NCBI GenBank assembly: GCA_002309615.1 | Contig: DBXT01000042.1 | Coordinates: 2,154 to 66,153 of the forward strand | Direction: 5' to 3' | DNA: 64,000 bases | Source: Bacteroidales bacterium UBA1205 | Lineage (GTDB): Bacteria; Bacteroidota; Bacteroidia; Bacteroidales; WCHB1-69 | Shown: piece by piece, positions 29,455 to 51,732 of the stretch | How positions within the stretch are numbered: the stretch's first letter is position 1 | Layout: every line of letters begins with the position of its first letter | Program-made: the position numbers and the translations under genes | Notes under the pieces: model-generated | What the model saw: only the letters and a program-made list of their open reading frames with translations | The model's database searches: none | What the model was told of the DNA's origin: nothing

Positions 29455-31140
29455 CTAAAATCCGATATTAAAGCCTGCCATAATAGCGATAGGCAAACCG
29501 GTGGTTTTCTGCATATAAGGTGGATTGTATTTCTCCACCAATCCTTCTTCTCCTGCCGTTTTGTACCAATAGGCATGGGCATAGACAAAACTATTGTTCA
29601 TAAATTCCCATTCTACTTGCAGGGCTGCAATATGATTATAATATATAATGTTGTCCAAACATGGCAGTCCCCAAGGTTCGCCTACGCCGTAGCGATAGTC
29701 GGTGCCTTTGCGGATATAGGTATAAGACGCTTTCAAATGCAGACGTTGTACGGGACGGTATGCCAATTCGGCATAAATTTCGTCGGCATTGCTGCCCAAA
29801 TAATGACCTAGGCACACATCTCCGGAAGCAAAAGTGACAGACGGCATAAAATGTTGATATACATTGGGATGTGTGCGGGTGTATTCCAATTTTAACGAAA
29901 ACGTTTTGGGAAGGCCGCTGAAACAGGCTCCTACTTTGGTGCTGATATAATTAGATTGTTTTTGCTTGTCGAACATGCGGGTAAACGACAATTCATCTAT
30001 AAACACGGATGCATACAGATGCAGATATTTGACATTGCGGCTGCTGATGTCAAAGAACATCTGCGTGTTGTGTCCTGCCGTGTTGGAGGTGGCGTTATAA
30101 TTGTCATCCACTCCTTTGAAGAACAAAAACGGCACCACATATTGCAATTGGAAGCCCATATCGCTATAAACTATGGAATTGCCGATATTGATATATAAAT
30201 GTTTTACCGGACGGAATGTCAGCATATTGGCGGCTATCAATTTGCTTCGCATCACTTCCCGCCTGTTCCCGTTGATGGATACATACGAGGCGGCACTGTC
30301 AACGAGGTTGGAGGCCAGCCATCCGTTAAAATAGTTGTATTCAAACCATTCCACCGGAGACAATCGCAATTTAATCATCACATAGGGCAAGGTGCGTCCG
30401 GAAAGTATATTGGAGCCGTGACAGGCATTGCCCCATGCGATATTGTCTTTTATCAATGCCAGCGAACCCCATTTCCATGAAAAAGTGATGCCGCCCCGCA
30501 CATTGAAATAGTCGGTGTTGGTGGTTTGTCCTTTTAATATGGCTCCCTGCATTTGCGTCAGTTTTTCGGGGGTGCTCATCGGTTGGGACTGCGAATTGTC
30601 GGTGAAATTGGCATAAAAGCCGATATGCTTGCCTATATATCCCACCATTTCTCCTCCGCCCCAATAGCGGTACATGCGTTGTTCCTTCTGTCTGCCGGCT
30701 ACATAATATTCTATGCCCCATATCGGTTTTACCGATATTTTGAACCATTTGTTATTATAATAAAGTCCTAAAGGGTAGAGACATAAATTGACATGCTCGT
30801 TGTTTTTAAAGGCATTGATTTTATAGGCGGACTTGTCCGCATCGCGTTCCAAGTTGAATTCCAACAGGTGAAATGCCAATTCCTGCCTTTGCACTTTGTT
30901 GAGTTGCTCTTCCTGGGCTTGGACTTCCTGCAGCTTTTCTGCAACAAAGGCTCTGCTATAAGGCTTTATGGCCGTGTTGATGTCTATAAGGTGCAAACTT
31001 GCCATTTCATCCAAAAATGCATACACACTTTTATGTGATATGTGCAAAGGGTTTTCCTGGGCATGAACCGCAAATGCCACCACCGACAACAATACTATAC
31101 CTGCTATTTTGTATATAATACTCTGTTTCAAAGTTTTCAT
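29455..31140 (-). CDS. Outer-membrane beta-barrel protein, capsule-assembly Wzi-like
   Basis: The signal peptide MKTLKQSIIYKIAGIVLLSVVAFAVHAQ starts at 31140. The remainder has alternating beta-strand patterning and ends in aromatic GFNIGF. The family call is from memory of Wzi-like annotations, not from a search. Confidence 0.6.
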   Translation of the reverse strand: MKTLKQSIIYKIAGIVLLSVVAFAVHAQENPLHISHKSVYAFLDEMASLHLIDINTAIKPYSRAFVAEKLQEVQAQEEQLNKVQRQELAFHLLEFNLERDADKSAYKINAFKNNEHVNLCLYPLGLYYNNKWFKISVKPIWGIEYYVAGRQKEQRMYRYWGGGEMVGYIGKHIGFYANFTDNSQSQPMSTPEKLTQMQGAILKGQTTNTDYFNVRGGITFSWKWGSLALIKDNIAWGNACHGSNILSGRTLPYVMIKLRLSPVEWFEYNYFNGWLASNLVDSAASYVSINGNRREVMRSKLIAANMLTFRPVKHLYINIGNSIVYSDMGFQLQYVVPFLFFKGVDDNYNATSNTAGHNTQMFFDISSRNVKYLHLYASVFIDELSFTRMFDKQKQSNYISTKVGACFSGLPKTFSLKLEYTRTHPNVYQHFMPSVTFASGDVCLGHYLGSNADEIYAELAYRPVQRLHLKASYTYIRKGTDYRYGVGEPWGLPCLDNIIYYNHIAALQVEWEFMNNSFVYAHAYWYKTAGEEGLVEKYNPPYMQKTTGLPIAIMAGFNIGF

Positions 31141-31278
31141 CTTTCCACCAAGCTGATTGTGCATGACTATTGTAAAATACAAAAGTACTAAATAAATGTG
31201 AAATATAAACATTTGCAAGGAATAAATTTTTATTGACAGCTTTCGGGCGGAACTTTTATTCTGCATCAGTAAAAAAAA
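30951..31278. repeat. Direct repeat copy 1 (wzi-like 5' coding end plus its promoter/leader)
   Basis: It aligns by eye base-for-base with 32741..33068 at an offset of ~1790 bp, with roughly 80-90% identity and long identical runs such as 'gtgcatgactattgtaaaatacaaaagtactaaataaatgtgaaatat'. Confidence 0.85.
31180..31187 (-). promoter_or_regulatory. -7 promoter box (TACTTTTG on the minus strand) for the wzi-like gene
   Basis: Plus-strand CAAAAGTA lies 40 nt upstream of ATG 31140. Confidence 0.5.
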
Positions 31279-31542: not shown

Positions 31543-31574
31543 CATATTTTTTTGATTAGAATGTTTTTTTTTTG

Positions 31575-31582
31575 TACCTTTG
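31575..31582 (+). promoter_or_regulatory. -7 promoter box TACCTTTG for the ATPase gene
   Basis: TACCTTTG lies 27 nt upstream of ATG 31609. Confidence 0.5.
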
Positions 31583-31608
31583 CATCCGTATTCATCAAAT
31601 TATCTATT

Positions 31609-32739
31609 ATGGATTTACTTAACAGAACTCTTCAGCAAGTTATTGAAAATAGAATATTTAAAGGTAAAGCCATAGTGCTTGTCGGTGCGAGACAAGTTGG
31701 CAAAAGCACTCTTTTCCGTCAGATTTTATCCTCCTGTCATGATATACTGACCTTAAACTGCGACGATATAGAAACCCGCAATCTGCTTGAAAATGCCAAT
31801 TTGAGCGAATTGCAACGACTTGTCGGTTCACATACTATAGTTATGATTGATGAAGCTCAACGACTAAAAGGAGCCGGACTTACCATGAAACTTATTACCG
31901 ACAATATGCCCGATGTTCAGTTGCTCATCACAGGATCATCATCTTTTATGCTTCAAGGCAGTCTTAACGAGCCGCTTACCGGTCGCAAATTTGAATATCA
32001 TCTATTTCCATTTTCCACCCAAGAGATAAACGATAATCTCGGATATTTGCGTACCCGTCAACTGTTGGAATCCCGACTTATATTCGGCTCCTATCCGGAT
32101 GTTATTAATCATATTGCGGATAGTGCAGATATTTTATCCAACCTTTCAAGCAGTTACATGTATCAGGATTTGCTCTCATTGGAAGGAATACGCAAACCCG
32201 TGATTATTGAAAAATTGTTGATAGCCTTAGCTTTGCAATTGGGTAATGAAGTATCATACTACGAACTTTCAAAAACCGTCGGGTCGGATGTAAAAACCAT
32301 TGAGAAATATGTTGACCTGCTTGAAAAATGCTATATAATATTCCGCCTGCCCGCTCTGAATCGGAATATGCGTTCAGAACTCAAAAAAGGAAAAAAAATA
32401 TTTTTCTACGATAACGGCATCCGCAATTCCATCATACATAACCTCAATCCGCTCTCCCTACGAAACGATATAGGGGCATTGTGGGAAAATTTTATTGTAA
32501 GCGAAAGAATAAAATATAATCACTATCGCGGACATCATGTAAACTATTATTTCTGGAGAACAACCACACAACAAGAAATAGACTTTATTGAAGAAAGTGG
32601 CGGCGAATTCCAACTTTTTGAGATGAAATGGAACCCCAAGAAAACTCTTGTACAAGCTCCACGGGAATTTACAAAAGCATATGGAGAAATGCCCTTTGCA
32701 ACCATCACTCCTGACAATTACCTTGATTTTCTGACATAA
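31609..32739 (+). CDS. AAA-ATPase with a C-terminal DUF4143/PD-(D/E)xK-like domain (COG1373-type)
   Basis: Walker A 'GARQVGKST', Walker B 'VMIDEAQ', and C-terminal 'QQEIDFIEE...LFEMKW' (D..ExK-like). The start MDLLNR at 31609 lies downstream of the promoter box. Confidence 0.8.
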   Translation: MDLLNRTLQQVIENRIFKGKAIVLVGARQVGKSTLFRQILSSCHDILTLNCDDIETRNLLENANLSELQRLVGSHTIVMIDEAQRLKGAGLTMKLITDNMPDVQLLITGSSSFMLQGSLNEPLTGRKFEYHLFPFSTQEINDNLGYLRTRQLLESRLIFGSYPDVINHIADSADILSNLSSSYMYQDLLSLEGIRKPVIIEKLLIALALQLGNEVSYYELSKTVGSDVKTIEKYVDLLEKCYIIFRLPALNRNMRSELKKGKKIFFYDNGIRNSIIHNLNPLSLRNDIGALWENFIVSERIKYNHYRGHHVNYYFWRTTTQQEIDFIEESGGEFQLFEMKWNPKKTLVQAPREFTKAYGEMPFATITPDNYLDFLT

Positions 32740-32740
32740 G

Positions 32741-32930
32741 TCCTGCTGTACGGTTTGACGGCCGTATTGATGTCAATGATATGCAAGGATGCCATTTCAT
32801 CCAAAAAAGCATATACGCTTTTGTGTGTGATATGCTATGGATTTTCCCGAGCATGAACGGCACATGCCGCAACCGACAACATCACTATACCCGCAATTTT
32901 ATATATAATACTCTTTTTCAAACTTTTCAT
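32741..32930 (-). pseudogene. Truncated, stop-interrupted 5' fragment of a wzi-like gene
   Basis: It translates as MKSLKKSIIYKIAGIVMLSVAACAVHARENP*HITHKSVYAFLDEMASLHIIDINTAVKPYS, against MKTLKQSIIYKIAGIVLLSVVAFAVHAQENPLHISHKSVYAFLDEMASLHLIDINTAIKPYS in the intact gene. It has an in-frame TAG, and homology ends at the ATPase stop. Confidence 0.8.
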
Positions 32931-32969
32931 CTTTCCACCGACCTTATTGTGCATGACTATTGTAAAATA

Positions 32970-32977
32970 CAAAAGTA
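32970..32977 (-). promoter_or_regulatory. Orphan copy of the wzi-like -7 promoter box
   Basis: It has the same CAAAAGTA context as 31180-31187. It points into the pseudogene fragment and then antisense into the ATPase 3' end. Confidence 0.4.
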
Positions 32978-33159
32978 CTAAATAAATGTGAAATATGAAC
33001 ATTTGCAAGCAAGAAATTTTTGCTTGTTGATTTTTGGGTGGCACTTTTATGCTACATGAGTAAAAAATGACAGTTTATTATAGTAGCGTGCCTTCGGCAC
33101 GCGAGAGGGAGCGGAGTGTATATTCTCTCCTCCATATTGCGACCTGCGGTCTTGTATGG

Positions 33160-33192
33160 AGTTAATAAAATAGTGTGCCGGAGGCACACTAT
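33160..33192 (-). terminator. Putative terminator of the protease-RT operon
   Basis: A perfect 10 bp stem ATAGTGTGCC/GGCACACTAT (33170-33179 / 33183-33192) with loop GGA. On the minus strand it is followed by TTTATTAAC. Confidence 0.55.
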
Positions 33193-33208
33193 TTCGCTTA
33201 TCTTATTA

Positions 33209-33233
33209 ACTTCGCTTGATTCCTAATGACAAG
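33209..33233. repeat. Cassette-flanking imperfect direct repeat, copy A
   Basis: ACTTCGCTTGATTCCTAATGACAAG compares with ACTTCGCCCGATTCCCAAAGACGAAC at 36650-36675, about 19/25 identical. The preceding TTATT is also shared. Confidence 0.5.
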
Positions 33234-33309
33234 ATTTAGCAAATATTCAATCTATTCTACAATATTTTTGTTTTTAAAGTTTTTTAGAACTAAATATTAT
33301 ATACAACGA

Positions 33310-34992
33310 TCACACATATCTACTAAAGTTCTCAACTTCGTGATATTCAATATACTCAGTCAACCTATTAATTTCGTCTTCATTAATACAAGAGTTGTCC
33401 GGATTTTGAAATATATTCTTAATATCTTCTTTTAACCAATCAATGTTCCAGATACTTTCGTTTGCATTTGCAGCATATTGGCATAAAGGTTCTGAAAATT
33501 CTTTATTGCGGTTTTCTTTAATAGTCAATCTTTGTAGCCATATTTCCAAATAACCCACATTAGGTAGCTGATCAAATTTTTTCAAGATTTTCTCAATTAC
33601 TTCTTTTTTCTTATTAGTATCTGGCTCTTGTGATAAAATCTTGCTTACGATAGCAACGAATGTTTTGTATACCTTTGGATTATTGAAAGCAATATTTGTT
33701 AATATACTAATTAAGACATCTGAAGAACCGAATTCTTTATATAAATCCAATTTTTCTGTTTCTGAAATCCATTTGAAGAACAAATCCATTGATTTTTGAA
33801 CAGAACCTGAGTTCGGGTATTCTTGTGCTAATCTGTTTATACGCAACAGATGTTTCTGTAAACTATATTTGTTATCTTTTTTTTCTAAATCCTTGTAGCC
33901 ATTCGTAATATAATACAATTTGTCAGGCTTGATTGCTCCGTTTATTATATCCTGAGTTATCATTGTTTTCTGAGTGTTGAGTCTAAAATTCAAACTTGAC
34001 AAAACCTCCGTTAAGATTTTAGCAATTTTAATGACGTCCTCTTGCGAGTTTCCAAAAATGCGATAATCATCACGATAACGTAAAATTCGGTAGTCTGATA
34101 TTTTTGCCTTAAAAATCTTTTCAGATAACAACAAATCAGCATAACCCAACACTATTTCTGCAATAAAATCCATTAAAACACTGCCTTGAGGGATGCCATT
34201 AGTTTGTTGATATGACATGGATTGTATACGTGAATCAATAATATCACCTACTGTATATCGGTTCTTAACTTGTTGTAAATAAATAATAGCTTCACTACTT
34301 CCATCTAAAAATTTAGTATTACAAACACTTAGCAACTCAGCATTTAGTTCAACTTCTTTATTTTTATTTCTGTATTTATGTTTAATTTTTGCATTCTCTT
34401 TTCCACACATTGCCCATGTTATAGAGTGTGTATAAATCGATCCATAACAATCTGTTATGTCGGTTGTTATTAGATAATTGAAATTCATAGCCAACTTTAT
34501 GGATTGCTGTTCAATTTCCTCCCACCAATTTAGAATCGTATTTGTACTATTTTTCTGTTTCGACAAATTAATAATAGGTAAACTATAGCATTTAATTTTA
34601 TCGTTTTTTGCAAACTCCTGAAACCTTTCAACTATCAATGCCCAATTATCTTCTTTTGTAATTTCATTGACTAAATAAACATATAGTACTGGGTTAATAA
34701 TTTGCAAAGGACGCCACGAAAATCGTCCATCTTTATTTTGAAAGAAATGATAATTGACGTTTTCAATTGTCTTAGGTTCTACATCCAAAATATCGCTTTT
34801 TTGTGTTTTATTTTCTTTATACTTATATCTCTTGCATACAAGGAAACTTGTCAATTCGTTTAACAATTTTTGAAAATCAAAATATTTAGGCAAGCAGATA
34901 TTACAAAACGATTCTTGTCTCAAAAAAAAATGTTTTGCTTCTTCTGCTGAAGCATCAATGATAAAAGTATTCATAAATCTTTTTTCTATCAA
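33310..34992 (-). CDS. Reverse transcriptase, AbiK/Abi-P2/UG-like, with a ~215 aa helical C-terminal domain
   Basis: RT motif A is 'ITTDITDCYGSIYTHSITW' (aa 175-193), motif B 'NGIPQGSVLMDFIAEIVLG' (aa 265-283), motif C 'RYRDDYRIFG' (YRDD = nt 34066-34077) and motif D/E 'LNFRLNTQKT'. The track start at 34992 is TTG. The first ATG is at 34974 (MNTFIID). Confidence 0.85.
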   Translation of the reverse strand: MIEKRFMNTFIIDASAEEAKHFFLRQESFCNICLPKYFDFQKLLNELTSFLVCKRYKYKENKTQKSDILDVEPKTIENVNYHFFQNKDGRFSWRPLQIINPVLYVYLVNEITKEDNWALIVERFQEFAKNDKIKCYSLPIINLSKQKNSTNTILNWWEEIEQQSIKLAMNFNYLITTDITDCYGSIYTHSITWAMCGKENAKIKHKYRNKNKEVELNAELLSVCNTKFLDGSSEAIIYLQQVKNRYTVGDIIDSRIQSMSYQQTNGIPQGSVLMDFIAEIVLGYADLLLSEKIFKAKISDYRILRYRDDYRIFGNSQEDVIKIAKILTEVLSSLNFRLNTQKTMITQDIINGAIKPDKLYYITNGYKDLEKKDNKYSLQKHLLRINRLAQEYPNSGSVQKSMDLFFKWISETEKLDLYKEFGSSDVLISILTNIAFNNPKVYKTFVAIVSKILSQEPDTNKKKEVIEKILKKFDQLPNVGYLEIWLQRLTIKENRNKEFSEPLCQYAANANESIWNIDWLKEDIKNIFQNPDNSCINEDEINRLTEYIEYHEVENFSRYV

Positions 34993-34995
34993 ATA

Positions 34996-36618
34996 TTATT
35001 TCTTCAATTCTATCTCATAAAAACACCATCCACCCTCTACAGTTTCTCTTAAATTCATTTCAGTTGTAGCGAACGGAATAGGAGGAAAGTATAATGTGAA
35101 TGTTATATCTTCTCCATTAGAGAAAAAATATGTTTTTTGCGGAGCTATTGCTATTCCTTCTGCTTTTGTCATTGTATACGCTCTCCCATTAACAGATAGA
35201 TAAGTATTCTTATCAATATAGCAATAATCAGCGTAAGAATCACCTATTTTATTATTGGCAATAATCTCAACTGCTGTATATTCTTTTTTCAAAGTAACAC
35301 TTTTGATTTTTGTATTTTCTGCCGATGCCGATTTAGTTCTTACCGTGGGCCAATATATTGTATTGGAAGAATTTACATTGGGCGATACACTTCGCTCATT
35401 GTAAGATGATTGTGTTGAAGAATTAGCGGACGTTGATTGATTAGAACACTTAATCAAAAAAACAAAGTTTTTTAAACTTTTGACTTTGTCGCTTAATTTC
35501 ATTCCGGAAACTGTATTGTTTGTTGGCAGTACGGATGTTAACGATGCACTTTCCACAAGATTTCTCAACAAAGAAGTTTTAATTGCATAACCGACATTTT
35601 CCGCTCCAATATGTTTAGCATTGACAATGCCTATAAGATTGCCATTATTATCAAAGAGAGGACCACCACTATTTCCCGGCTGTACAGGTGCTGAAATTTG
35701 ATACAAAGATGCATCTCCCTGAAAACCTGTTTTGGAGCTTATCACACCTGTGGTAAGTTTTATTTCATCTCCCATGGTACTTGTCAAAGGATAACCCAAA
35801 ACAAATATTTCTTCTCCGACTTCAGATGTACTTGTTTTTATTTTGTATGGTAATGTTCCGAATCCTTTAAATCTGTTATCGTTTATTTTTAATATTGCCA
35901 AGTCATTTATTTTGTCCGTAGCTACAACTGATGCCGAATATGAAACATCAAAATTTCCGTTTACACCATTAATGTTGATAGATTTAGCATCTTCTACAAC
36001 ATGGTAATTTGTTACAATGTAACCATTGTTTAATGCAAATCCTGTTCCTGACCAATTTTCAATTTTTGACTCTTCCTCTCTTTCTTTAATTTCTCTTTCA
36101 GCTTGCCAATACATTTCTTTTGTAGGATAGGTTTTTATTAATTTATAGTGCAATATACATTTTGCTGATGCTGCAGCATCTCTTCCCATAGATTTAGCAA
36201 GAGCTTCTTTCGGTATGTTCAATTTAAAATCTAACGTTGTTCCGTTGTACAATGTAACCCATTCTTCCATAGAGTAATCCTTAAAGGTTTGTGTAAATCT
36301 ATATTGGTTAGATTCTCCGATTCTTGAAAAAATAGCTGCTCCTCCATCTTGACCTCCAATAGCATATCTATTATTGCCTATTTTTTGAATAAAAATAGTT
36401 TCAAAAGTATTATTAGGAGGGAAAGCCCTACCGAGAGCAAAAACTTGACTAGACATAGACATTTCATACACCCCTTCAATTGGATCTAATGAGCTGATAT
36501 TATTTTTGAAATATTCTTTTGCTCTAATCAGATCTGTTCTAGTTTGTCCCATTACACTTGCAACAACACACATTAAAAGTATGCACATACATAATTTGGA
36601 AATTCTATTTGTTTTCAT
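34996..36618 (-). CDS. Exported trypsin-like (S1/Trypsin_2-type) serine protease with unknown N- and C-terminal domains
   Basis: The signal peptide is MKTNRISKLCMCILLMCVVASVMGQ. The catalytic triad context is 'TNYHVV' (His206), 'INDLAILKI' (Asp239) and 'GNSGGPLF' (Ser317). An S/N/T-rich linker spans aa ~391-420. The stop lies 3 nt (TTG start) or 21 nt (ATG start) before the RT start. Confidence 0.85.
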   Translation of the reverse strand: MKTNRISKLCMCILLMCVVASVMGQTRTDLIRAKEYFKNNISSLDPIEGVYEMSMSSQVFALGRAFPPNNTFETIFIQKIGNNRYAIGGQDGGAAIFSRIGESNQYRFTQTFKDYSMEEWVTLYNGTTLDFKLNIPKEALAKSMGRDAAASAKCILHYKLIKTYPTKEMYWQAEREIKEREEESKIENWSGTGFALNNGYIVTNYHVVEDAKSININGVNGNFDVSYSASVVATDKINDLAILKINDNRFKGFGTLPYKIKTSTSEVGEEIFVLGYPLTSTMGDEIKLTTGVISSKTGFQGDASLYQISAPVQPGNSGGPLFDNNGNLIGIVNAKHIGAENVGYAIKTSLLRNLVESASLTSVLPTNNTVSGMKLSDKVKSLKNFVFLIKCSNQSTSANSSTQSSYNERSVSPNVNSSNTIYWPTVRTKSASAENTKIKSVTLKKEYTAVEIIANNKIGDSYADYCYIDKNTYLSVNGRAYTMTKAEGIAIAPQKTYFFSNGEDITFTLYFPPIPFATTEMNLRETVEGGWCFYEIELKK

Positions 36619-36649
36619 AAATCTATATTTGATATGTTAACATTTATTC

Positions 36650-36675
36650 ACTTCGCCCGATTCCCAAAGACGAAC
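36650..36675. repeat. Cassette-flanking imperfect direct repeat, copy B
   Basis: See copy A. This copy lies 31 nt upstream of the protease ATG. Confidence 0.5.
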
Positions 36676-36701
36676 AAAACAAAAAACACTCAAAACCACA
36701 T

Positions 36702-36741
36702 AAAAAAAAGCGCGGGAATCAGAACTTTTGCTCATCCCGCG
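36702..36741 (-). terminator. Intrinsic terminator/attenuator-like hairpin at the 3' end of the structured RNA
   Basis: The minus strand reads CGCGGGA-U-GAGC-AAAA-GUUC-UGA-UCCCGCG-C-UUUUUUUU. The outer stem is 7 bp, the inner stem 4 bp, and a U8 tract follows. Confidence 0.6.
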
Positions 36742-37010
36742 TACAAGGTCTTCGCATTACCTACCAACCGAGGATAAGCAATGCCGAAGCCCACGCTGTA
36801 CGTATAAACGGATTTTAGGACATCCGCTATATAAAGACGCTATTCAATAGTGCCTTTCATATACAATACCATGGACACTGATCATTGCCTTACCGTGCGG
36901 TTGGTGTAGAATTTGCGAAGTTCTGTACGCCGCAGATAAAACGTCAGTTCAACGTCTTTTCTATGTTTTGTCGTCCACCCGCAAACCCGTCAAGGCTTCG
37001 GATGTTTGAC
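36702..37010 (-). ncRNA. Candidate ~300 nt structured non-coding RNA, or structured leader of the protease-RT operon; family unknown
   Basis: No ORF is present and GC is higher than in the neighbouring DNA. It has a -7 box at its 5' side and a hairpin plus U-tract at its 3' side. Long-range complementarities are 36750-36756/36914-36920 (7 bp), 36763-36770/36898-36905 (8 bp) and 36784-36791/36994-37001 (8 bp), with several local hairpins. The 5' boundary is approximate. Confidence 0.5.
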
Positions 37011-37014
37011 ACTG

Positions 37015-37022
37015 CAAAAGTA
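37015..37022 (-). promoter_or_regulatory. -7 promoter box (TACTTTTG on the minus strand) for the structured RNA/operon
   Basis: The plus strand reads CAAAAGTA. A TTTG lies upstream on the minus strand at 37052-37049, which is longer than ideal spacing. No other TAnnTTTG was found between here and the protease ATG. Confidence 0.4.
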
Positions 37023-37080
37023 ATAAAAAAAATGATATAAAAAACCAACAAAGTCAATTTGTTGAAAAAAATATCTGCAA

Positions 37081-37181
37081 GGACGTTTCATGAAACGTCC
37101 CCACAATATCATGGTGAGTTTTCACTATAGGTGGCTTTGACAAGCTCAGCCACCCATGTAAGGACGATGTGTACATCGTCC
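37081..37181. repeat. Three GC-rich stem-loops in the divergent intergenic region
   Basis: H1 is 37081-37100, GGACGTTTCATGAAACGTCC, a perfect 20 bp palindrome. H2 is 37130-37154, GGTGGCT..AGCCACC. H3 is 37162-37181, GGACGATGTGTACATCGTCC. H1 and H3 share the frame AAGGACG-N-CGTCCC(C/G)ACA. Confidence 0.6.
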
Positions 37182-37248
37182 CGACAGGTATCTCTCCATT
37201 AAGGTATGTATTGTCCATACAAATATCGGAATATTAATAAAAAAATAC

Positions 37249-48582: not shown

Positions 48583-49530
48583 TTACAACGTTAAAAATGG
48601 ATGTTTACACGAAAGAGCCTCCTTGGATATTTCCGCATTGCGGATAAAATGCACCATTTGTATGCTGGGCTTGGCTTGGTCCAAACCAAAACCCTTACCC
48701 GCTAATATGTGTTCATAACTTACTGTATGCAAATCGGTGAATCCGCCGGTAAATTCCACTTCTTCTCCTTCCACTTGTATGGACCTGTATGTTGTTTTTC
48801 CCTGATTGACAGCATCTTTTGGCAGATAGCCGCTATCCACACTCAAAAACCACCGTACCCGTGCTTTTTGCAATTCCATATAACCCGACACCACATGCTT
48901 GTCGCGATGATGGACAATGATTTGGCGAGGTTCGCCGAATATAAATTGCAACATGTCAAAAAAATGAATACCGATATTGGTAGCCAGCCCTCCCGATTTG
49001 GACTCATCACCTTTCCATGAATAATGGAACCATTTTCCGCGAGAGGTGATATAGGTAAGGTCTACATCATAGATTTTATCGGCAGGACCATTGTCTATCT
49101 GTTGTTTCAATTTCAATATCATGGGATGGTGACGCAGTTGTAAAATGGTATATATTTTTTTCCCCGTTTCTTTTTCCAATTCCGCCAGCGCATCTACATT
49201 CCACGGATTAAGTACCAATGGTTTTTCACATATAGCGTCTGCCCCGTTCAACAAGCTCATACGGATATGGGCATCATGCAAATAGTTGGGTGTGCAAATA
49301 CTGAAAAAATCAACCTTCTCATTTTGTCCGTGCTGTAATTTATATATGTGACGTTCAAAACGTTCGGGCTCGGTAAAAAAATCCGCTTGAGGAAAATAAG
49401 CATCTATCACCCCTACGCTGTCGTTTTTATCCAATGCCACCAACACGGTATTGCCGGTGTCTTTTATGGCTTTTAAATGGCGTACCGCTATATATCCGCC
49501 CAAACCTATTAATGCAAAATTTTTACTCAT
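48583..49530 (-). CDS. Gfo/Idh/MocA-family NAD-dependent sugar-nucleotide oxidoreductase (WbpB-like)
   Basis: N-terminal Rossmann 'FALIGLGGYIAVRH' and 'EKPL' motifs. It is coupled to the acetyltransferase upstream (ATG/stop overlap at 49530). Confidence 0.8.
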   Translation of the reverse strand: MSKNFALIGLGGYIAVRHLKAIKDTGNTVLVALDKNDSVGVIDAYFPQADFFTEPERFERHIYKLQHGQNEKVDFFSICTPNYLHDAHIRMSLLNGADAICEKPLVLNPWNVDALAELEKETGKKIYTILQLRHHPMILKLKQQIDNGPADKIYDVDLTYITSRGKWFHYSWKGDESKSGGLATNIGIHFFDMLQFIFGEPRQIIVHHRDKHVVSGYMELQKARVRWFLSVDSGYLPKDAVNQGKTTYRSIQVEGEEVEFTGGFTDLHTVSYEHILAGKGFGLDQAKPSIQMVHFIRNAEISKEALSCKHPFLTL

Positions 49531-50099
49531 TATAATAATTCCACCTTGTTATTTTTCAATATATATCTCATGCCGCTTTCAGGGCATACGGCTATGCCTT
49601 CTTCATTAAAATGCAGACGATGCCCGTACTGACTCATCCATCCTATCTGCCGTGAAGGATTGCCTACTACCAAAGCGTAAGGCGGCACATGGTGCGTTAC
49701 CACCGCACCGGCACCTATGAATGCATACTCTCCTATGTCATGACCGCACACTATGGTGGCATTGGCCCCTATGGTAGCCCCTTTACCCACATGCGTGCTT
49801 GCATATTCATGCTTGCGGCAGATAGCACTGCGAGGGTTGATTACATTGGTAAACACCATAGAAGGACCCAAAAAAACATCATCATCACACACAACACCTG
49901 TATATATGGATACATTGTTCTGCACTTTTACATTATTGCCCAATTTCACATGAGGCGATACCACCACATTCTGACCAATATTACAATTCTCCCCTATTCG
50001 GCAAGGTGACATGATATGGGAAAAATGCCATATCCTGGTACCTTTGCCTATTTGACATCCCTCATCAATAACGGCTGTTTCGTGTGCTTGATATTCCAT
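49530..50099 (-). CDS. Left-handed beta-helix (hexapeptide) N-acetyltransferase, WbpD/WlbB-like
   Basis: Hexapeptide repeats '[26 protein letters not shown]..' in a 189 aa protein. Confidence 0.8.
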
Positions 50100-50186
50100 G
50101 TGCTAAATGTATTTGTCTTTCTTGATAAAATTCCTATAGCCCTGCCCGCTGCATTTTATAAGAAAACTTTTTATTAAAACTTTGTG

Positions 50187-50194
50187 CAAAGGTA
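50187..50194 (-). promoter_or_regulatory. -7 promoter box (TACCTTTG on the minus strand) for the wbpD-like operon
   Basis: Plus-strand CAAAGGTA lies 88 nt upstream of ATG 50099. Confidence 0.45.
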
Positions 50195-50859
50195 GTATTT
50201 TTTTACAACATTCATCAGCATACGTCCAAAACTTTTTTACTCGCCTTATCTCATTCTCTGCCGAAACTCCACTGTTTACCTGCATCAAACATTCTACCTC
50301 ATAAAAAAAAGGGTTATTTCATGCGTTTTATTCTCTTCAAATAAAATTTATAAAAAATATTAATATGATTATCTGTTATTTACAAGAAAAATACAATATT
50401 TTTCATTATAACTTTACTTTCGTACTATTTTTTTTATTACATTTGCAAAATGATTAATAAACTACATTTATTTATATGGTATCAAAAATAATATCCTTTT
50501 TACAAATATTATCAAAGAAATATAAGCAATTACGTTATCTTTCTTTTATACCACTTCTTCTCTTATATAAAATACTTAAAAAGTTCTGGATATTCAAAGA
50601 AAATTATGAAATAATCGTAAGGTTTGCTTTATTAGAGTATTCGCCCCCTTTACTATTGGGCAAATAAAGCCCTTGTTGATAGCGAAGACAGAATTTATTT
50701 CTGTTCAGCAAGGGCATAAGTTAAACATCTTCGCACAAGTTTTGGCAATTCTTGGAGGTAAAAATCGCCAAAAGCCAATATTTTTTTAATAAATCTTGGT
50801 GTGAGTAGATTAACATAAAACAATAAAAAAATCAAATAACAACATAAAATCTATCAAAT

Positions 50860-51732
50860 ATGAAAAATTTAAAATTAATAGCCGGAATTGCTACATTGAT
50901 AGCCATAACCGCAATTATAATTTTTGCGGCATGTAGAAAAGACTCAAATAACACAAAAAAATCTGAAAAAAAGTATGTAATTAATAATATTGAAAACATG
51001 GGTGACTATTGTTGGGTACCCCCAAATGCAGAGGTAATAGAAGATTATCATAATCAAACTATTCTAATATCGTCATCTAATTGGACATATATTGGCACTA
51101 CATCTGACAATCAATTATTAATGCTTAACAAGGGTGATCAGATAAAGATATCCTGCACCTGCAATTCTTCCGGAAGTTGCTATCCTTTTTATGTAAATGA
51201 AATTGCAGGCTGTGCAGGAGATTGTTCCAAATGTACTATGACTCAATCCGTAACAACTACAGGCAAGCATATTACTCATGGAGGGTATGTTAATCTTGAA
51301 ATAGAACCTCATTTCATTACCAAAGATGAAGAACTCCCTACCGCCTTTGATGAAATGTTCAACATTCCTGAAATCAATAACAAAATTAATACTTTTATAA
51401 CCAATATTTATAAAGGGTATGAATATCCAAAATTGATTAATAAAGATGATTACATATTAACTCCCGACAATTACTCTTTTGCAGTTATCAATCTATGCGG
51501 TAGAGCCATTGTATTGCCAGTCCCTGATGACATCTTGCCTCAAAACAGCATATCTGGTAATAAATTTCAATGCAGTTGCACAGATGGAACCTGTCTACAC
51601 AAAGTTGAAAGATTGATTATTCACTATTGCAAAGATAATTGTTCTGGAACTTGTACAATGACTGTTTCGGTTGCCACAACTCCTGAGATTGATGACCATA
51701 TCCGATTTTCATCCATATCGTTTCAATATTAA
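50860..51732 (+). CDS. Cys-rich lipoprotein with two duplicated 6-Cys modules (no family recognised)
   Basis: It has a lipobox (IIIFAAC). Module 1 is 'ISCTCNSSGSCYPFYVNEIAGCAGDCSKCTMTQSVTTT' and module 2 is 'FQCSCTDGTCLHKVERLIIHYCKDNCSGTCTMTVSVATT'. Confidence 0.6.
   Translation: MKNLKLIAGIATLIAITAIIIFAACRKDSNNTKKSEKKYVINNIENMGDYCWVPPNAEVIEDYHNQTILISSSNWTYIGTTSDNQLLMLNKGDQIKISCTCNSSGSCYPFYVNEIAGCAGDCSKCTMTQSVTTTGKHITHGGYVNLEIEPHFITKDEELPTAFDEMFNIPEINNKINTFITNIYKGYEYPKLINKDDYILTPDNYSFAVINLCGRAIVLPVPDDILPQNSISGNKFQCSCTDGTCLHKVERLIIHYCKDNCSGTCTMTVSVATTPEIDDHIRFSSISFQY

What the first reader, a model, noticed from the sequence alone, without database searches (positions are those of the whole stretch)
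33310..34992. The RT has AbiK/Abi-P2/UG-type motifs (SIYTHSITW, RYRDD) and a long helical C-terminal domain, unlike retron, group II or DGR enzymes
The palm motifs can be read directly: 'TDITDCYGSIYTHSITW', 'NGIPQGSVLMDF', 'LRYRDDYRIFG' and 'LNFRLNTQKT'. The motif C variant is YRDD (nt 34066-34077), not the YADD/YVDD usual in retron and group II RTs. As far as I recall, 'YTHSI.W' right after motif A and 'RYxDD' are characteristic of the AbiK/Abi-P2/UG class. About 90 aa precede the RT core. About 215 aa of predicted helical sequence follow it, which may be equivalent to the alpha-repeat domain of AbiK-like enzymes.

Features of other RT classes are absent. There is no retron 'VTG'/'NAxxH' signature, no maturase X domain, no intron domain V/VI RNA, and no DGR template/variable repeat pair.

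AbiK-type RTs are known for protein-primed, template-independent DNA synthesis. A dedicated structured RNA next to such an enzyme would therefore be unexpected. The annotated start at 34992 is TTG; the first ATG is at 34974.
Basis: partly seen in the sequence, partly recalled or inferred. Interest (0 to 1): 0.75.

Follow-up and report, generated by a model that had tools for sequence, protein, structure and literature searches.

The report
Abi-P2 defence polymerase with leader RNA
The gene encodes a clear member of the known Abi-P2 family of anti-phage DNA polymerases, but here it shares an operon with a secreted protease, downstream of a conserved structured RNA that accompanies this branch of the family and that I could not find described anywhere.

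Summary
ORF 33310-34992(-) encodes an intact reverse-transcriptase-like protein, and every quoted motif is at the stated coordinates. The PADLOC AbiP2 profile scores E=4e-181. It is 34% identical to prototype P2-EC30 ORF570. The AlphaFold model matches PDB 7R08 at TM 0.88. The priming tyrosine (Tyr61 in E. coli, Tyr37 here) and YRDD are invariant. Retron, group II and DGR features are absent. As a family call this is ordinary: at least 560 cluster representatives exist.

The context is new. (1) A ~310-nt RNA (about 37009-36702, minus strand) has its own promoter box and terminator and heads the operon RNA > exported S1C protease > RT. A covariance model built only from RNAs next to other RTs of this clade finds it (39 bits, E=8e-10). 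Those RNAs show strong covariation. No Rfam family matches. (2) The same exported protease family sits next to Abi-P2 RTs in four independent loci. Elsewhere it is paired with a SIR2-like gene.

My best reading is a protein-primed, untemplated Abi-P2 polymerase whose operon is gated by a riboswitch-like leader. RNA as an RT cofactor or template is not excluded.

The parts
33310..34974 (-). Abi-P2-family reverse-transcriptase-like DNA polymerase. It is 554 aa from ATG 34974; the ORF extends to TTG 34992 (560 aa). Residue numbers in this report count from the TTG.
   Evidence: PADLOC AbiP2 3.7e-181; PDB 7R08 7.4e-82; BLASTP to P2-EC30 ORF570 34% over 534 aa, E=7e-91; Foldseek TM 0.76/0.88 to 7R08.
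34882..34884 (-). Codon of Tyr37 (Tyr31 from the ATG), the counterpart of the priming tyrosine Tyr61 of E. coli Abi-P2 (motif LPxY).
   Evidence: LPKY aligns with LPAY61. Y37 and P35 are invariant in 39 homologues. The Y61F variant abolishes polymerisation (PMC9508834).
34414..34464 (-). Motif A region TDITDCYGSIYTHSITW, with catalytic Asp178.
   Evidence: D178, Y183, Y187, H189 and W193 are invariant.
34066..34077 (-). Motif C YRDD, with catalytic Asp308 and Asp309.
   Evidence: R305, R307, D308, D309 and Y310 are invariant; the motif is identical in E. coli Abi-P2 (RYRDDYRIF).
34255..34368 (-). A 38-residue insertion in the fingers region (about residues 209-246) that is absent from E. coli Abi-P2 and from most relatives.
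   Evidence: Gap in the BLASTP alignment. It is shared only with P0001 and P0002, and partly with a few others. Nearly all library matches split into two stretches at this point.
33313..33948 (-). C-terminal helical (alpha-solenoid) domain, residues about 349-560. It occupies the place of a thumb.
   Evidence: AlphaFold2 secondary structure; full-length superposition on 7R08; description of the Abi-P2 domains in PMC9508834.
33168..33194 (-). Perfect 12-bp hairpin about 115 nt after the RT stop codon, probably the operon terminator. The 3' flank 33040-33310 is well structured but is local to this locus.
   Evidence: z=-4.7. It is conserved only in L081. Similarity to other RT loci stops exactly at the RT stop codon.
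34996..36618 (-). Exported S1C (HtrA/DegS-like) serine protease. It has a signal peptide followed by Gln25, the catalytic triad His206/Asp239/Ser317, and beta-rich N- and C-terminal domains instead of PDZ. Its stop codon lies 3 nt before the RT TTG and 21 nt before the RT ATG.
   Evidence: Pfam Trypsin_2 2.7e-28; triad motifs; signal peptides in all 9 relatives examined; Q25 invariant in 30 sequences; Foldseek hits to Deg/HtrA proteases. The same family is adjacent to the RT in L081, L088, L001 and L046.
36702..37022 (-). Structured RNA gene or leader. It has a Bacteroidetes -7 promoter box TACTTTTG (37022-37015), an RNA of about 308 nt (about 37009-36702), a covariance-model core at 36725-36960, a terminator stem at 36741-36710 and a U-run at 36709-36702. 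The protease start codon follows 83 nt later.
   Evidence: Fold z=-5.3. It is 98-99% conserved in L081 and L111, where the flanks are 88-91% identical. R1 scores 39.2 bits, E=8e-10. nhmmer finds RNAs beside other RTs. 61 of 80 consensus pairs are kept against 27-33 of about 75 when slid. Layout. No Rfam match.
33022..37070 (.). Strain-variable, low-GC island that carries the RNA, the protease and the RT, between coaE and a duplicated 5' fragment of the Wzi-like gene.
   Evidence: Eight other contigs that encode the identical GcvH protein (taken here as strains of the same species) lose homology at 37070. L081 shares the island with 5 extra genes. GC is 0.30 for the RT and 0.33 for the protease, against 0.39 for the window.

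Best explanation
The gene encodes an Abi-P2-family abortive-infection polymerase (UG/Abi class 1). By homology it should assemble as a trimer or hexamer and start DNA synthesis on the hydroxyl of its own Tyr37. It should make untemplated single-stranded DNA with its YRDD active site, and this product is what makes infection abortive. These steps are inferred from E. coli Abi-P2, AbiK and DRT4; none is shown here.

In this bacterium (an uncultured Bacteroidales organism) the gene is the last gene of a horizontally acquired operon: promoter, then a structured RNA of about 310 nt ending in an intrinsic terminator, then an exported HtrA-like protease, then the RT. The RNA belongs to a covarying family that is found with this clade of Abi-P2 RTs. 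I think it most likely acts in cis as a riboswitch-like leader whose fold decides whether transcription reads through the terminator into the protease and RT genes, which are potentially toxic.

The protease is probably a co-selected partner or cargo of the module. Elsewhere the same protease family carries a SIR2-like gene in the position the RT holds here.

My probabilities for the separate claims: Abi-P2 family member 0.97; the RNA is a real structured RNA 0.95; the RNA is functionally tied to the RT-containing operon 0.75; it is a cis leader rather than an RT cofactor 0.5 against 0.25; there is a functional link between protease and RT 0.4.
For: Family. PADLOC AbiP2 gives 601 bits, E=3.7e-181, against 170 bits for the next family. 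PDB 7R08 matches at 7.4e-82. The protein is 34% identical to P2-EC30 ORF570 over 534 aa. The AlphaFold2 model (pLDDT 86) superposes on 7R08 at TM 0.76/0.88, against 0.57 for DRT4 and at most 0.42 for retron and group II RTs. Tyr37, Asp178 and Asp308/309 are invariant. The mechanism of the family is taken from PMC9508834 and PMC12783706.

Island. GC is low. The island is absent from eight other contigs encoding the identical GcvH. It lies next to a PDC-S01 candidate defence ATPase. About 10 of 80 distant Abi-P2 loci are embedded in type I R-M operons.

RNA. Fold z=-5.3. The RNA is conserved more strongly than the flanking genes. Related RNAs beside other RTs have 33 of 122 pairs with compensatory changes. 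34 pairs have changes on both sides, against 13.9+/-2.5 in shuffles (0 of 500 reach it). 91% of cells are paired, against 35-44% with partners slid. Model R1, trained without any window-type sequence, finds window 36725-36960 at 39.2 bits (the next hit scores 13), L003 at 55 bits and L087 at 49 bits. The window RNA's own profile finds L003, L087, L090 and L058; a second-round profile that includes those four adds L089.

Leader-like layout. In 9 of 11 loci the order is a TAnnTTTG box, the RNA, a T-run, 51-84 nt, then the first ORF, whatever that ORF is: RT, protease, YfbU-like, TonB_C or a Dcm-like methylase. The 3' strand of the basal helix overlaps the 5' arm of the terminator. In the type-B RNAs an invariant CGUGGGUAUC can pair either inside the fold or with the terminator arm GAUACCCACG.

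Protease. The same family is adjacent to Abi-P2 RTs in the window/L081, L088, L001 and L046, in both gene orders and in two separate RT clades. In all 14 protease loci sampled (four places each for three query proteases, two for the fourth), a gene follows the protease 2-3 nt downstream. It is a SIR2-like gene in 10 loci and a broken SIR2-like stub in 4.
Against: There is no biochemistry or transcript data for this locus. Three loci of the same RT clade (L088, L001, L082) have no detectable RNA within the DNA available. Several loci of the neighbouring clade also have none. In L005 the RNA lies downstream of the RT and heads a different operon, so the RT there cannot be under its control. I looked for the RNA almost only in loci chosen because they hold an RT, so its specificity for RT operons is not established.

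No covariation can separate the terminator from the anti-terminator pairing, because the segments concerned are invariant. In the minimum-free-energy fold of the window RNA the basal helix and a slightly shortened terminator coexist.

The protease is Sec-exported whereas the RT has no signal peptide, so a direct physical partnership is hard to picture. Only 2 of 80 species-representative Abi-P2 loci have the protease. Other RTs of the clade are followed by unrelated exported proteins: BspA-type LRR proteins, a lipoprotein, and an Asp-protease-TPR protein.
Confidence: 0.6

Rival explanations
1. The RNA is not a leader but a dedicated cofactor of the RT, acting as scaffold, activator or template, as in DRT2, DRT3, DRT9 and DRT10. 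On this reading, this Bacteroidales branch of Abi-P2 would perform protein-primed but RNA-dependent DNA synthesis.
For: RNA and RT stay adjacent or in one operon in about 12 loci while the RT diverges to about 48% identity. This includes L005, where the order is reversed (RT then RNA, about 50 nt apart) and a cis effect on the RT is impossible. The RNA has its own promoter and terminator, so it would accumulate as a separate transcript of about 310 nt. Protein priming and an ncRNA template coexist in DRT9 and DRT10 (abstracts of PMC12483538 and PMC12632851). Mestre et al. anticipated ncRNAs in further UG/Abi groups (PMC9226505). This subclade of the RT carries a 38-residue fingers insertion that E. 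coli Abi-P2 lacks.
Against: E. coli Abi-P2 polymerises without any nucleic acid and was purified free of nucleic acid (PMC9508834). One to six unrelated genes separate the RNA from the RT in the window, L081, L087 and L131. The RNA keeps a constant 51-84 nt distance to whatever ORF comes next. That is the pattern of a leader, not of a partner. L088, L001 and L082 have the RT but no detectable RNA. The RT model is closest to the untemplated enzymes (Abi-P2, DRT4, DRT6). Its TM-score to DRT9 and DRT2 is only 0.22-0.28.
Confidence: 0.25
2. The RT is an ordinary stand-alone Abi-P2 gene. The protease and the RNA are unrelated neighbours that merely share a recombination hotspot or island with it.
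For: AbiP2 is described as a stand-alone multidomain system (PMC9226505). Most of the 80 species-representative loci show no conserved partner apart from embedding in R-M operons. The island junctions are recombinogenic: there is a 288-nt duplication, the N-terminal domain of the protease is swapped relative to L081, and five extra genes are present in L081. Exported proteins are very common in Bacteroidales.
Against: The same protease family recurs beside RTs of two distant clades and in both orders. It was found nowhere else within the flanks of the 80 species-representative RT loci. The RNA recurs in about 12 RT loci and in none of about 85 distant Abi-P2 loci or the protease-SIR2 loci. Intergenic distances are operon-like: 3-21 nt between protease and RT, and 83 nt between the RNA and the protease.
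Confidence: 0.15
3. The enzyme is a retron, group II intron, DGR or CRISPR-associated RT, or an inactive relic.
For: Only a generic RVT_1 match and weak hits to group II and Cas RT profiles over the palm region.
Against: TIGR04416 (group II RT/maturase) scores 46.5 bits against a cut-off of 300. There is no VTG or NAxxH motif. No intron or retron RNA is found in Rfam. There is no TR/VR pair. TM-scores to retron and group II structures are 0.22-0.42, against 0.88 for Abi-P2. All catalytic and priming residues are intact and invariant.
Confidence: 0.01

Closest known systems
Abi-P2 (ORF570 of prophage P2-EC30, E. coli; PDB 7R08)
   Same: It has the same family profile and the same two-lobed fold: palm and fingers plus a C-terminal alpha-solenoid, with no thumb. 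The RYRDDYRIF active site is identical. The priming tyrosine sits in the same LPxY loop. It is likewise found on horizontally acquired DNA (PMC9508834).
   Different: Identity is only 34%. It carries a 38-residue fingers insertion. The host is a Bacteroidales bacterium and the site is a chromosomal island, not the hypervariable region of a P2 prophage. It is not a lone gene: it lies in an operon with an exported S1C protease, downstream of a structured RNA.
DRT4 (UG15), DRT6 (UG12) and AbiK: the other class 1 UG/Abi polymerases
   Same: They share the SIYTH..W and RYxDD signatures and a helical C-terminal domain. They also share protein-primed, template-independent ssDNA synthesis (PMC12783706, PMC9508834). 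The trigger model for DRT4, in which a phage DNA-binding protein protects the ssDNA, is the best available guide to how the product becomes toxic.
   Different: They are much more distant (TM 0.44-0.58; PADLOC scores 74-139 bits against 601 for AbiP2). All are described as single-gene systems without RNA.
ncRNA-dependent defence RTs: DRT2 (UG2), DRT3 (UG3+UG8), DRT9 (UG28), DRT10 (UG17), UG27
   Same: A structured ncRNA of a few hundred nt lies next to the RT gene, usually upstream, and its sequence differs between subgroups. DRT9 and DRT10 combine protein priming with an RNA template (PMC9226505; PMC12483538; PMC12632851).
   Different: Except for UG8, these RTs are class 2 and structurally remote (TM 0.22-0.28). 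Their RNAs directly abut the RT. Here other genes can lie between RNA and RT, and the RNA behaves positionally like a 5' leader. No Rfam model matches.
Terminator-type riboswitches and other cis-acting leader RNAs
   Same: It has its own promoter and a large conserved fold closed by long-range helices. An intrinsic terminator shares nucleotides with the fold. The first ORF follows at a fixed short distance, whatever it encodes.
   Different: No ligand or binding protein is known. It matches no known riboswitch class. It has been seen so far only with Abi-P2-containing islands. In L005 it follows the RT.
Defence systems that combine an RT with a trypsin-like protease: retron type XI RT-protease fusions and the UG9 variant with an N-terminal protease plus MBL
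   Same: An RT and a trypsin-fold serine protease are encoded together. The protease domain here scores 7e-25 against the PADLOC RT-Protease_XI profile (PMC9226505).
   Different: Those proteases are cytoplasmic and fused to the RT. This one is a separate, Sec-exported HtrA/DegS-like protein with other flanking domains, and it usually partners a SIR2-like protein.

Membership tests
Abi-P2 (UG/Abi class 1 RT) | Full-length match to the family profile that clearly exceeds matches to other UG/Abi groups | tested here: met
   PADLOC AbiP2 scores 601.2 bits, E=3.7e-181, covering profile positions to 485 of 489. The next hits are RT_UG14 at 169.9 bits and Drt6 at 138.8 bits.
Abi-P2 (UG/Abi class 1 RT) | Homology to the prototype (P2-EC30 ORF570 / PDB 7R08) along the whole protein, including the C-terminal domain | tested here: met
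   BLASTP gives 34% identity over 534 aa, E=7e-91, covering query 5-515 and subject 35-499. phmmer to 7R08 gives 7.4e-82. tblastn against phage records gives 34.3% identity over 91% of the query.
Abi-P2 (UG/Abi class 1 RT) | Intact polymerase active site (motif A Asp; motif C YxDD) | tested here: met
   D178 and YRDD 306-309 are present and invariant in 39 homologues.
Abi-P2 (UG/Abi class 1 RT) | Priming tyrosine on the loop between fingers helices alpha2 and alpha3 (Tyr61 in E. coli Abi-P2) | tested here: met
   LPKY37 aligns with LPAY61. Y37 is invariant. The dispensable Tyr46 of E. coli is Phe here, consistent with the mutant data in PMC9508834.
Abi-P2 (UG/Abi class 1 RT) | Bilobal fold: palm and fingers without a thumb, plus a C-terminal alpha-solenoid | tested here: met
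   The AlphaFold2 model has pLDDT 86.1 and pTM 0.88. Foldseek to 7R08 chains gives E=3e-29, TM 0.76 (query) and 0.88 (target), over about 560 columns. This rests on a predicted structure, not a solved one.
Abi-P2 (UG/Abi class 1 RT) | Trimer or hexamer assembly required for activity | not testable with these tools
   Only single-chain prediction is available. This needs SEC-MALS or cryo-EM.
Abi-P2 (UG/Abi class 1 RT) | Template-independent, protein-primed DNA synthesis | not testable with these tools
   Inferred from homology only. It matters especially here because an RNA accompanies the gene.
Abi-P2 (UG/Abi class 1 RT) | Anti-phage (abortive infection) phenotype | not testable with these tools
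   The context is consistent with defence: a strain-variable low-GC island next to a PDC-S01 candidate, and relatives embedded in type I R-M operons.
Abi-P2 (UG/Abi class 1 RT) | Stand-alone single-gene system (as described in PMC9226505; a description, not a strict definition) | tested here: not met
   The RT start lies 3-21 nt after the stop codon of an exported protease gene, and both sit behind a conserved RNA. Recurrent partners occur in this clade.
Retron RT | msr/msd ncRNA with flanking inverted repeats; VTG and NAxxH motifs; match to a retron RT profile | tested here: not met
   There is no VTG or NAxxH motif. No retron RT family appears among the 25 best of 33 PADLOC matches. There is no Rfam retron RNA. 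TM-scores to retron RTs are 0.20-0.42.
Group II intron RT/maturase | Maturase (X/thumb) domain and intron RNA domains V and VI | tested here: not met
   TIGR04416 scores 46.5 bits against a cut-off of 300, over the palm region only. There are no intron RNA hits. TM is 0.25/0.32.
DGR RT | Template and variable repeat pair with adenine-specific differences | tested here: not met
   The only repeat pair (30944-31231 and 32734-33021) has 46 mismatches of all types. It is a duplicated 5' end of a gene.
ncRNA-dependent DRTs (DRT2/3/9/10) | RT belongs to UG2, UG3+UG8, UG28 or UG17, and a cognate ncRNA abuts the RT | tested here: inconclusive
   The RT does not belong to those groups: Drt3b scores 93 bits against 601 for AbiP2, and TM to DRT9 and DRT2 is 0.22-0.28. 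However, a conserved structured RNA does accompany the RT clade. Whether the RT uses it is untested.
Transcription-terminating riboswitch / cis leader | A conserved fold upstream of the regulated ORF, with an intrinsic terminator that competes with part of the fold | tested here: inconclusive
   The fold is supported by covariation. A promoter box, a T-run and a constant 51-84 nt spacing to the first ORF are present in 9 of 11 loci. Overlap between fold and terminator is visible but is not supported by covariation. No ligand is known.

The most novel reading that the evidence does not exclude
This Bacteroidales branch of Abi-P2 may not be an RNA-free, template-independent enzyme. The conserved structured RNA of about 310 nt that accompanies it may be its cofactor, serving as scaffold, activator or template. 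That would make it the first class 1 Abi-type polymerase of the AbiK/Abi-P2 kind that depends on an ncRNA. The exported HtrA-like protease may be a third, interchangeable component (RT or SIR2-like partner) of a new modular defence system.
Probability: 0.22. Interest if true: 0.85.

Novelty: new variant of a known kind. Interest (0 to 1): 0.6.

Why it matters
Abi-P2, AbiK and DRT4 are the textbook cases of polymerases that need neither template nor nucleic-acid primer, and they are treated as single-gene systems. Finding a covarying structured RNA that stays with one large branch of Abi-P2 raises two possibilities. One is a new riboswitch-like sensor that gates an abortive-infection operon, in which case its ligand would reveal what these cells sense. 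The other is an unsuspected RNA dependence in a class 1 RT. Both can be tested directly with a construct of about 4 kb.

The recurrent pairing of a Sec-exported HtrA/DegS-like protease with a cytoplasmic RT or SIR2-like protein also points to an undescribed modular conflict system in gut and rumen Bacteroidales. Defence in these organisms is poorly studied. If neither link holds, the gene is simply one more Abi-P2 homologue.

Tried and rejected
1. Retron, group II and DGR readings were rejected.

2. I considered whether the structured 3' flank of the RT (33040-33310, z=-4.7) is a UG8-like downstream ncRNA. I rejected this. It is conserved only in the sister strain L081, and similarity to all other RT loci ends at the stop codon. 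It looks like terminators.

3. Rfam at permissive thresholds on the window RNA and on a type-B RNA gave only chance hits.

4. Searches of IMG/VR for the RNA (an exact 27-mer and a degenerate hairpin motif) and for the protease gave nothing real. RT relatives in viral contigs have no protease nearby.

5. I looked for a SIR2 remnant in the window to test for gene replacement and found none.

One filters-off search failed internally.

7. RNAalifold on a plain MAFFT alignment of the window-type RNAs recovered only the 3' domain, because the 5' half was misaligned. Homology of the whole RNA therefore rests on R1 and on threading.

8. The five extra genes in L081 have no PADLOC hits.

9. A literature search for an Abi-P2-associated RNA, or for an exported protease paired with SIR2 or an RT, found no report. 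The library is incomplete.
Full report
**The observation**

The ORF 33310-34992 on the minus strand is real (560 aa from a TTG). The closest relatives start at the ATG at 34974. A 554-aa version of the protein is on record in NCBI and Logan, so 34974 is the probable start. Pfam sees only a generic RVT_1 domain (2.3e-09).

**What the protein is**

The PADLOC profile for AbiP2 matches along its whole length: 601 bits, E=3.7e-181. The next UG/Abi groups reach 170 bits (UG14) and 139 bits (Drt6). NCBIfam models for Drt4, Drt3b and group II RT/maturase all fall far below their cut-offs.

The best solved relative is PDB 7R08, the E. coli Abi-P2 polymerase (7.4e-82). A direct comparison with the prototype gene, ORF570 of prophage P2-EC30, gives 34% identity over 534 residues (E=7e-91).

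An AlphaFold2 model built on 39 homologues (pLDDT 86, pTM 0.88) superposes on all six 7R08 chains with TM 0.76/0.88. Other structures score as follows:
- DRT4/UG15 and DRT6: about 0.57
- AbiK: 0.44-0.51
- AbiA: 0.32-0.45
- retron, group II, DRT2 and DRT9 RTs: 0.2-0.4

Figiel et al. (PMC9508834) showed three things about Abi-P2. It is a trimer or hexamer of two-lobed protomers (palm and fingers plus a helical solenoid, no thumb). It polymerises DNA without a template. A Tyr61-to-Phe change abolishes synthesis. Tyr61 (LPAY) aligns with Tyr37 (LPKY) here, and that tyrosine, Asp178 and Asp308/309 are invariant in the alignment.

- There is no VTG or NAxxH motif.
- No intron or retron RNA is found.
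- The only long repeat nearby is a duplicated 5' end of a gene, and its mismatches are of all types.

The enzyme is a member of Abi-P2. The family is large: 6211 proteins at E<=1e-10 among the candidates scored, and 560 representatives of 50%-identity clusters at E<=1e-30. The one peculiarity of the protein is a 38-residue insertion in the fingers region, shared only with its nearest relatives.

**Genomic setting**

The RT (GC 0.30) and the gene just upstream of it (GC 0.33) lie in a window with GC 0.39. In a related MAG (L081, whose RT is 91% identical) the same chromosomal site between coaE/gcvH and wzi/ispG holds the same RT. There are five more genes upstream of it there, and no DUF4143 ATPase.

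Eight other contigs that encode the identical GcvH protein, taken here as strains of the same species, lose all similarity at window position 37070. The segment from 37070 to about 33022 is therefore a strain-variable island.

The neighbouring DUF4143/AAA ATPase (31552-32739) matches the PADLOC candidate PDC-S01 (4e-155). It sits between 288-nt direct repeats. Among 80 species-representative Abi-P2 loci, about ten lie between hsdS and hsdR of type I R-M operons. All of this fits a defence gene on mobile DNA.

**The protease**

The upstream gene (34996-36618, minus strand) ends 3 nt before the RT's TTG. It encodes a trypsin-fold S1C protease (Trypsin_2 2.7e-28) with an intact His206/Asp239/Ser317 triad. 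Its fold resembles HtrA and DegS.

All nine relatives I inspected have an N-terminal signal peptide followed by Gln, and Gln25 is invariant in 30 sequences. This is the Bacteroidetes 'Q-rule' for substrates of signal peptidase I (PMC5837995). The protease is therefore exported, whereas the RT has no signal peptide.

The same protease family, including its non-catalytic domains, is adjacent to Abi-P2 RTs in several loci:
- L081: protease then RT
- L088: RT then protease
- L001: RT then protease
- L046: RT then protease, with an RT from a different clade of the tree

Two further loci of the clade have an exported aspartyl-protease-TPR protein after the RT. Other RTs of the clade are followed by BspA-type LRR proteins or by a lipoprotein.

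Seen from the protease side, I sampled 14 loci around four other family members, and in all of them a gene follows the protease 2-3 nt downstream. In 10 loci it is a 411-415-aa SIR2-like gene (PADLOC SIR2 profiles, 6.5e-13 to 4.8e-15). In the other 4 it is a broken stub of such a gene. These loci lie in mobile or defence-like surroundings.

In the window, the RT therefore occupies the position that a SIR2-like gene occupies elsewhere. Mestre et al. describe AbiP2 as stand-alone and report a trypsin-like protease only as a fusion in a UG9 variant (PMC9226505). I regard a functional link between protease and RT as plausible but unproven (about 0.4). The different cellular compartments argue against direct contact.

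**The RNA**

Between coaE and the protease, on the RT strand, the order is:
- a Bacteroidetes -7 box, TACTTTTG (37022-37015)
- about 308 nt of G+C-richer sequence (GC 0.45)
- a strong hairpin (36741-36710) and a run of eight U
- 83 nt further on, the protease start codon

The RNA folds much better than shuffled sequence (z=-5.3). It is 98-99% identical in L081 and L111, where the flanks are 88-91% identical. It belongs to the variable island. It matches nothing in Rfam, even at E<=10.

Comparing the flanks of related RT genes revealed a conserved non-coding block of about 330 nt directly upstream of the RT in L085, L134 and L137. nhmmer then found the same RNA upstream of the operon in L131-133 and just downstream of the RT in L005. 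A profile of the window RNA found copies next to the RTs of L003, L087, L090 and L058, and a second-round profile that includes those four adds L089.

The six 'type B' RNAs support a deeply nested structure:
- 33 of 122 predicted pairs have compensatory double changes.
- 34 pairs have changes on both sides, against 13.9+/-2.5 in shuffles (0 of 500 shuffles reach it).
- 91% of cells are paired, against 35-44% when the partners are slid.

A covariance model of the 242-nt core (R1) was built from those six sequences only. It detects L003 at 55 bits, L087 at 49 bits and window 36725-36960 at 39.2 bits (E=8e-10 in a 10-kb search without filters; the next hit scores 13 bits).

I then threaded the window RNA onto the R1 structure by sequence alignment alone. 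It keeps 61 of 80 pairs, against 27-33 of about 75 in the slid controls. The window RNA is thus a member of one structured RNA family.

In my sample this family occurs in about 12 distinct loci of two neighbouring RT clades. It does not occur in about 85 more distant Abi-P2 loci, in the protease-SIR2 loci, or in IMG/VR. Three loci of the clade (L088, L001, L082) lack it.

**How the RNA might work**

In 10 of 11 loci a TAnnTTTG box precedes the RNA. In 9 of 11 the first ORF starts 51-84 nt after the T-run, whatever it encodes:
- the RT itself: L134, L085, L137, L058
- the protease: the window
- a YfbU-like protein: L081
- a 107-aa ORF: L087
- a TonB_C protein: L131
- a Dcm-like methyltransferase: L005

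One to six genes can lie between the RNA and the RT. The 3' strand of the basal helix overlaps the 5' arm of the terminator in the window RNA. In the type B RNAs the invariant CGUGGGUAUC can pair either within the fold (helix 10) or with the terminator arm GAUACCCACG.

This is the anatomy of a terminator-type riboswitch or protein-binding leader. I therefore favour a cis-acting gate on read-through into the operon (about 0.5).

The alternative is that the RNA is a cofactor or template of the RT, as in DRT2, DRT3, DRT9 and DRT10. That reading is kept alive by L005, where the RNA follows the RT, by the RNA's own promoter and terminator, and by the fact that protein priming and RNA templating coexist in DRT9 and DRT10. 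I give it about 0.25.

I found no report of an RNA associated with Abi-P2. Mestre et al. only speculated that further UG/Abi groups might have ncRNAs.

**Limits**

Everything about activity is inferred from homology. The RNA was sought almost only in loci chosen for having an RT, so its specificity is unproven. My scans of the genome and metagenome collections were already spent. Covariation supports the fold but not the proposed switch. The structure comparison uses a predicted model.

**Verdict**

As a classification of the RT, the finding is correct and, on its own, ordinary: a new member of a known family. The operon context is a new variant of that kind. It consists of a conserved, covarying RNA absent from Rfam and apparently undescribed, at the head of the operon, and a recurrent exported protease partner. 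It is directly testable. Interest 0.6.

Noticed in passing
window 31552-32739 (+), with repeats 30944-31231 and 32734-33021: A DUF4143/AAA_14 ATPase gene (PADLOC candidate PDC-S01, E=4e-155) is inserted between two 288-nt direct repeats that are 84% identical. The repeats duplicate the 5' end of the Wzi-like gene. The sister locus L081 has neither the ATPase nor the duplication.
   Followed up: partly
L117-L130 (for example L121:5001-8134, L123:5001-8152): The exported S1C protease family forms a tight two-gene cassette with a cytoplasmic SIR2-like protein of 411-415 aa (2-3 nt gap). The cassettes lie next to integrases, IS21, Abi_2 and HTH_17 genes. In L127-L130 the SIR2-like gene is reduced to a 53-aa stub followed by an unrelated 374-aa ORF. 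I found no description of such a system.
   Followed up: partly
L005:9575-15100: In this locus the RT-associated RNA lies about 50 nt downstream of the RT. It precedes, by 66 nt, an operon that starts with a Dcm-like cytosine methyltransferase followed by ORFs of 508 and 739 aa. This may be a restriction-type system under the same leader.
   Followed up: no
L087:1479-5906: Here the RNA heads a cluster of two small exported peptides with His-x-Ser repeat C-termini and two radical-SAM proteins. It looks like a His-Xaa-Ser (Hxs) type system. The RT is the last gene of the cluster.
   Followed up: no
L081:2496-5890: Five co-directional genes lie between the RNA and the protease-RT pair in the sister strain: a YfbU-domain protein of 176 aa, then proteins of 195, 131, 454 and 154 aa. 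None has a PADLOC hit.
   Followed up: partly
L019, L022, L025, L036, L053, L054, L062, L066, L069, L079 (about 1 kb upstream of the RT) and L015, L022, L025, L062, L066, L073 (downstream): About one in eight distant Abi-P2 genes is inserted between hsdS and hsdR of a type I restriction-modification operon.
   Followed up: partly
window 37075-37185 (-): Several GC-rich hairpins, one of them terminator-like at 37106-37075, lie in the core DNA immediately outside the island boundary at 37070. Many assemblies of this species break within a few hundred bases of this point, which suggests a recombination hotspot.
   Followed up: no
L001:6930-7170: Several tandem-like copies of a unit of about 47 nt (GGGCAAnGAATTCCGACCACGGGAA...) lie in the 1.2-kb non-coding stretch upstream of an RT that lacks the conserved RNA.
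   Followed up: no
window 36058-36618 compared with L081:5930-6889: The N-terminal domain of the protease has been swapped between the two sister strains. The window version resembles the short N-terminus of the SIR2-linked protease in L117, whereas L081 has the long form. This indicates domain-level recombination within the family.
   Followed up: partly
window 50001-51000: This 1-kb bin has the lowest GC in the window (0.28) and lies largely between ORFs (49530-50099 and 50860-51732). I did not examine it.
   Followed up: no
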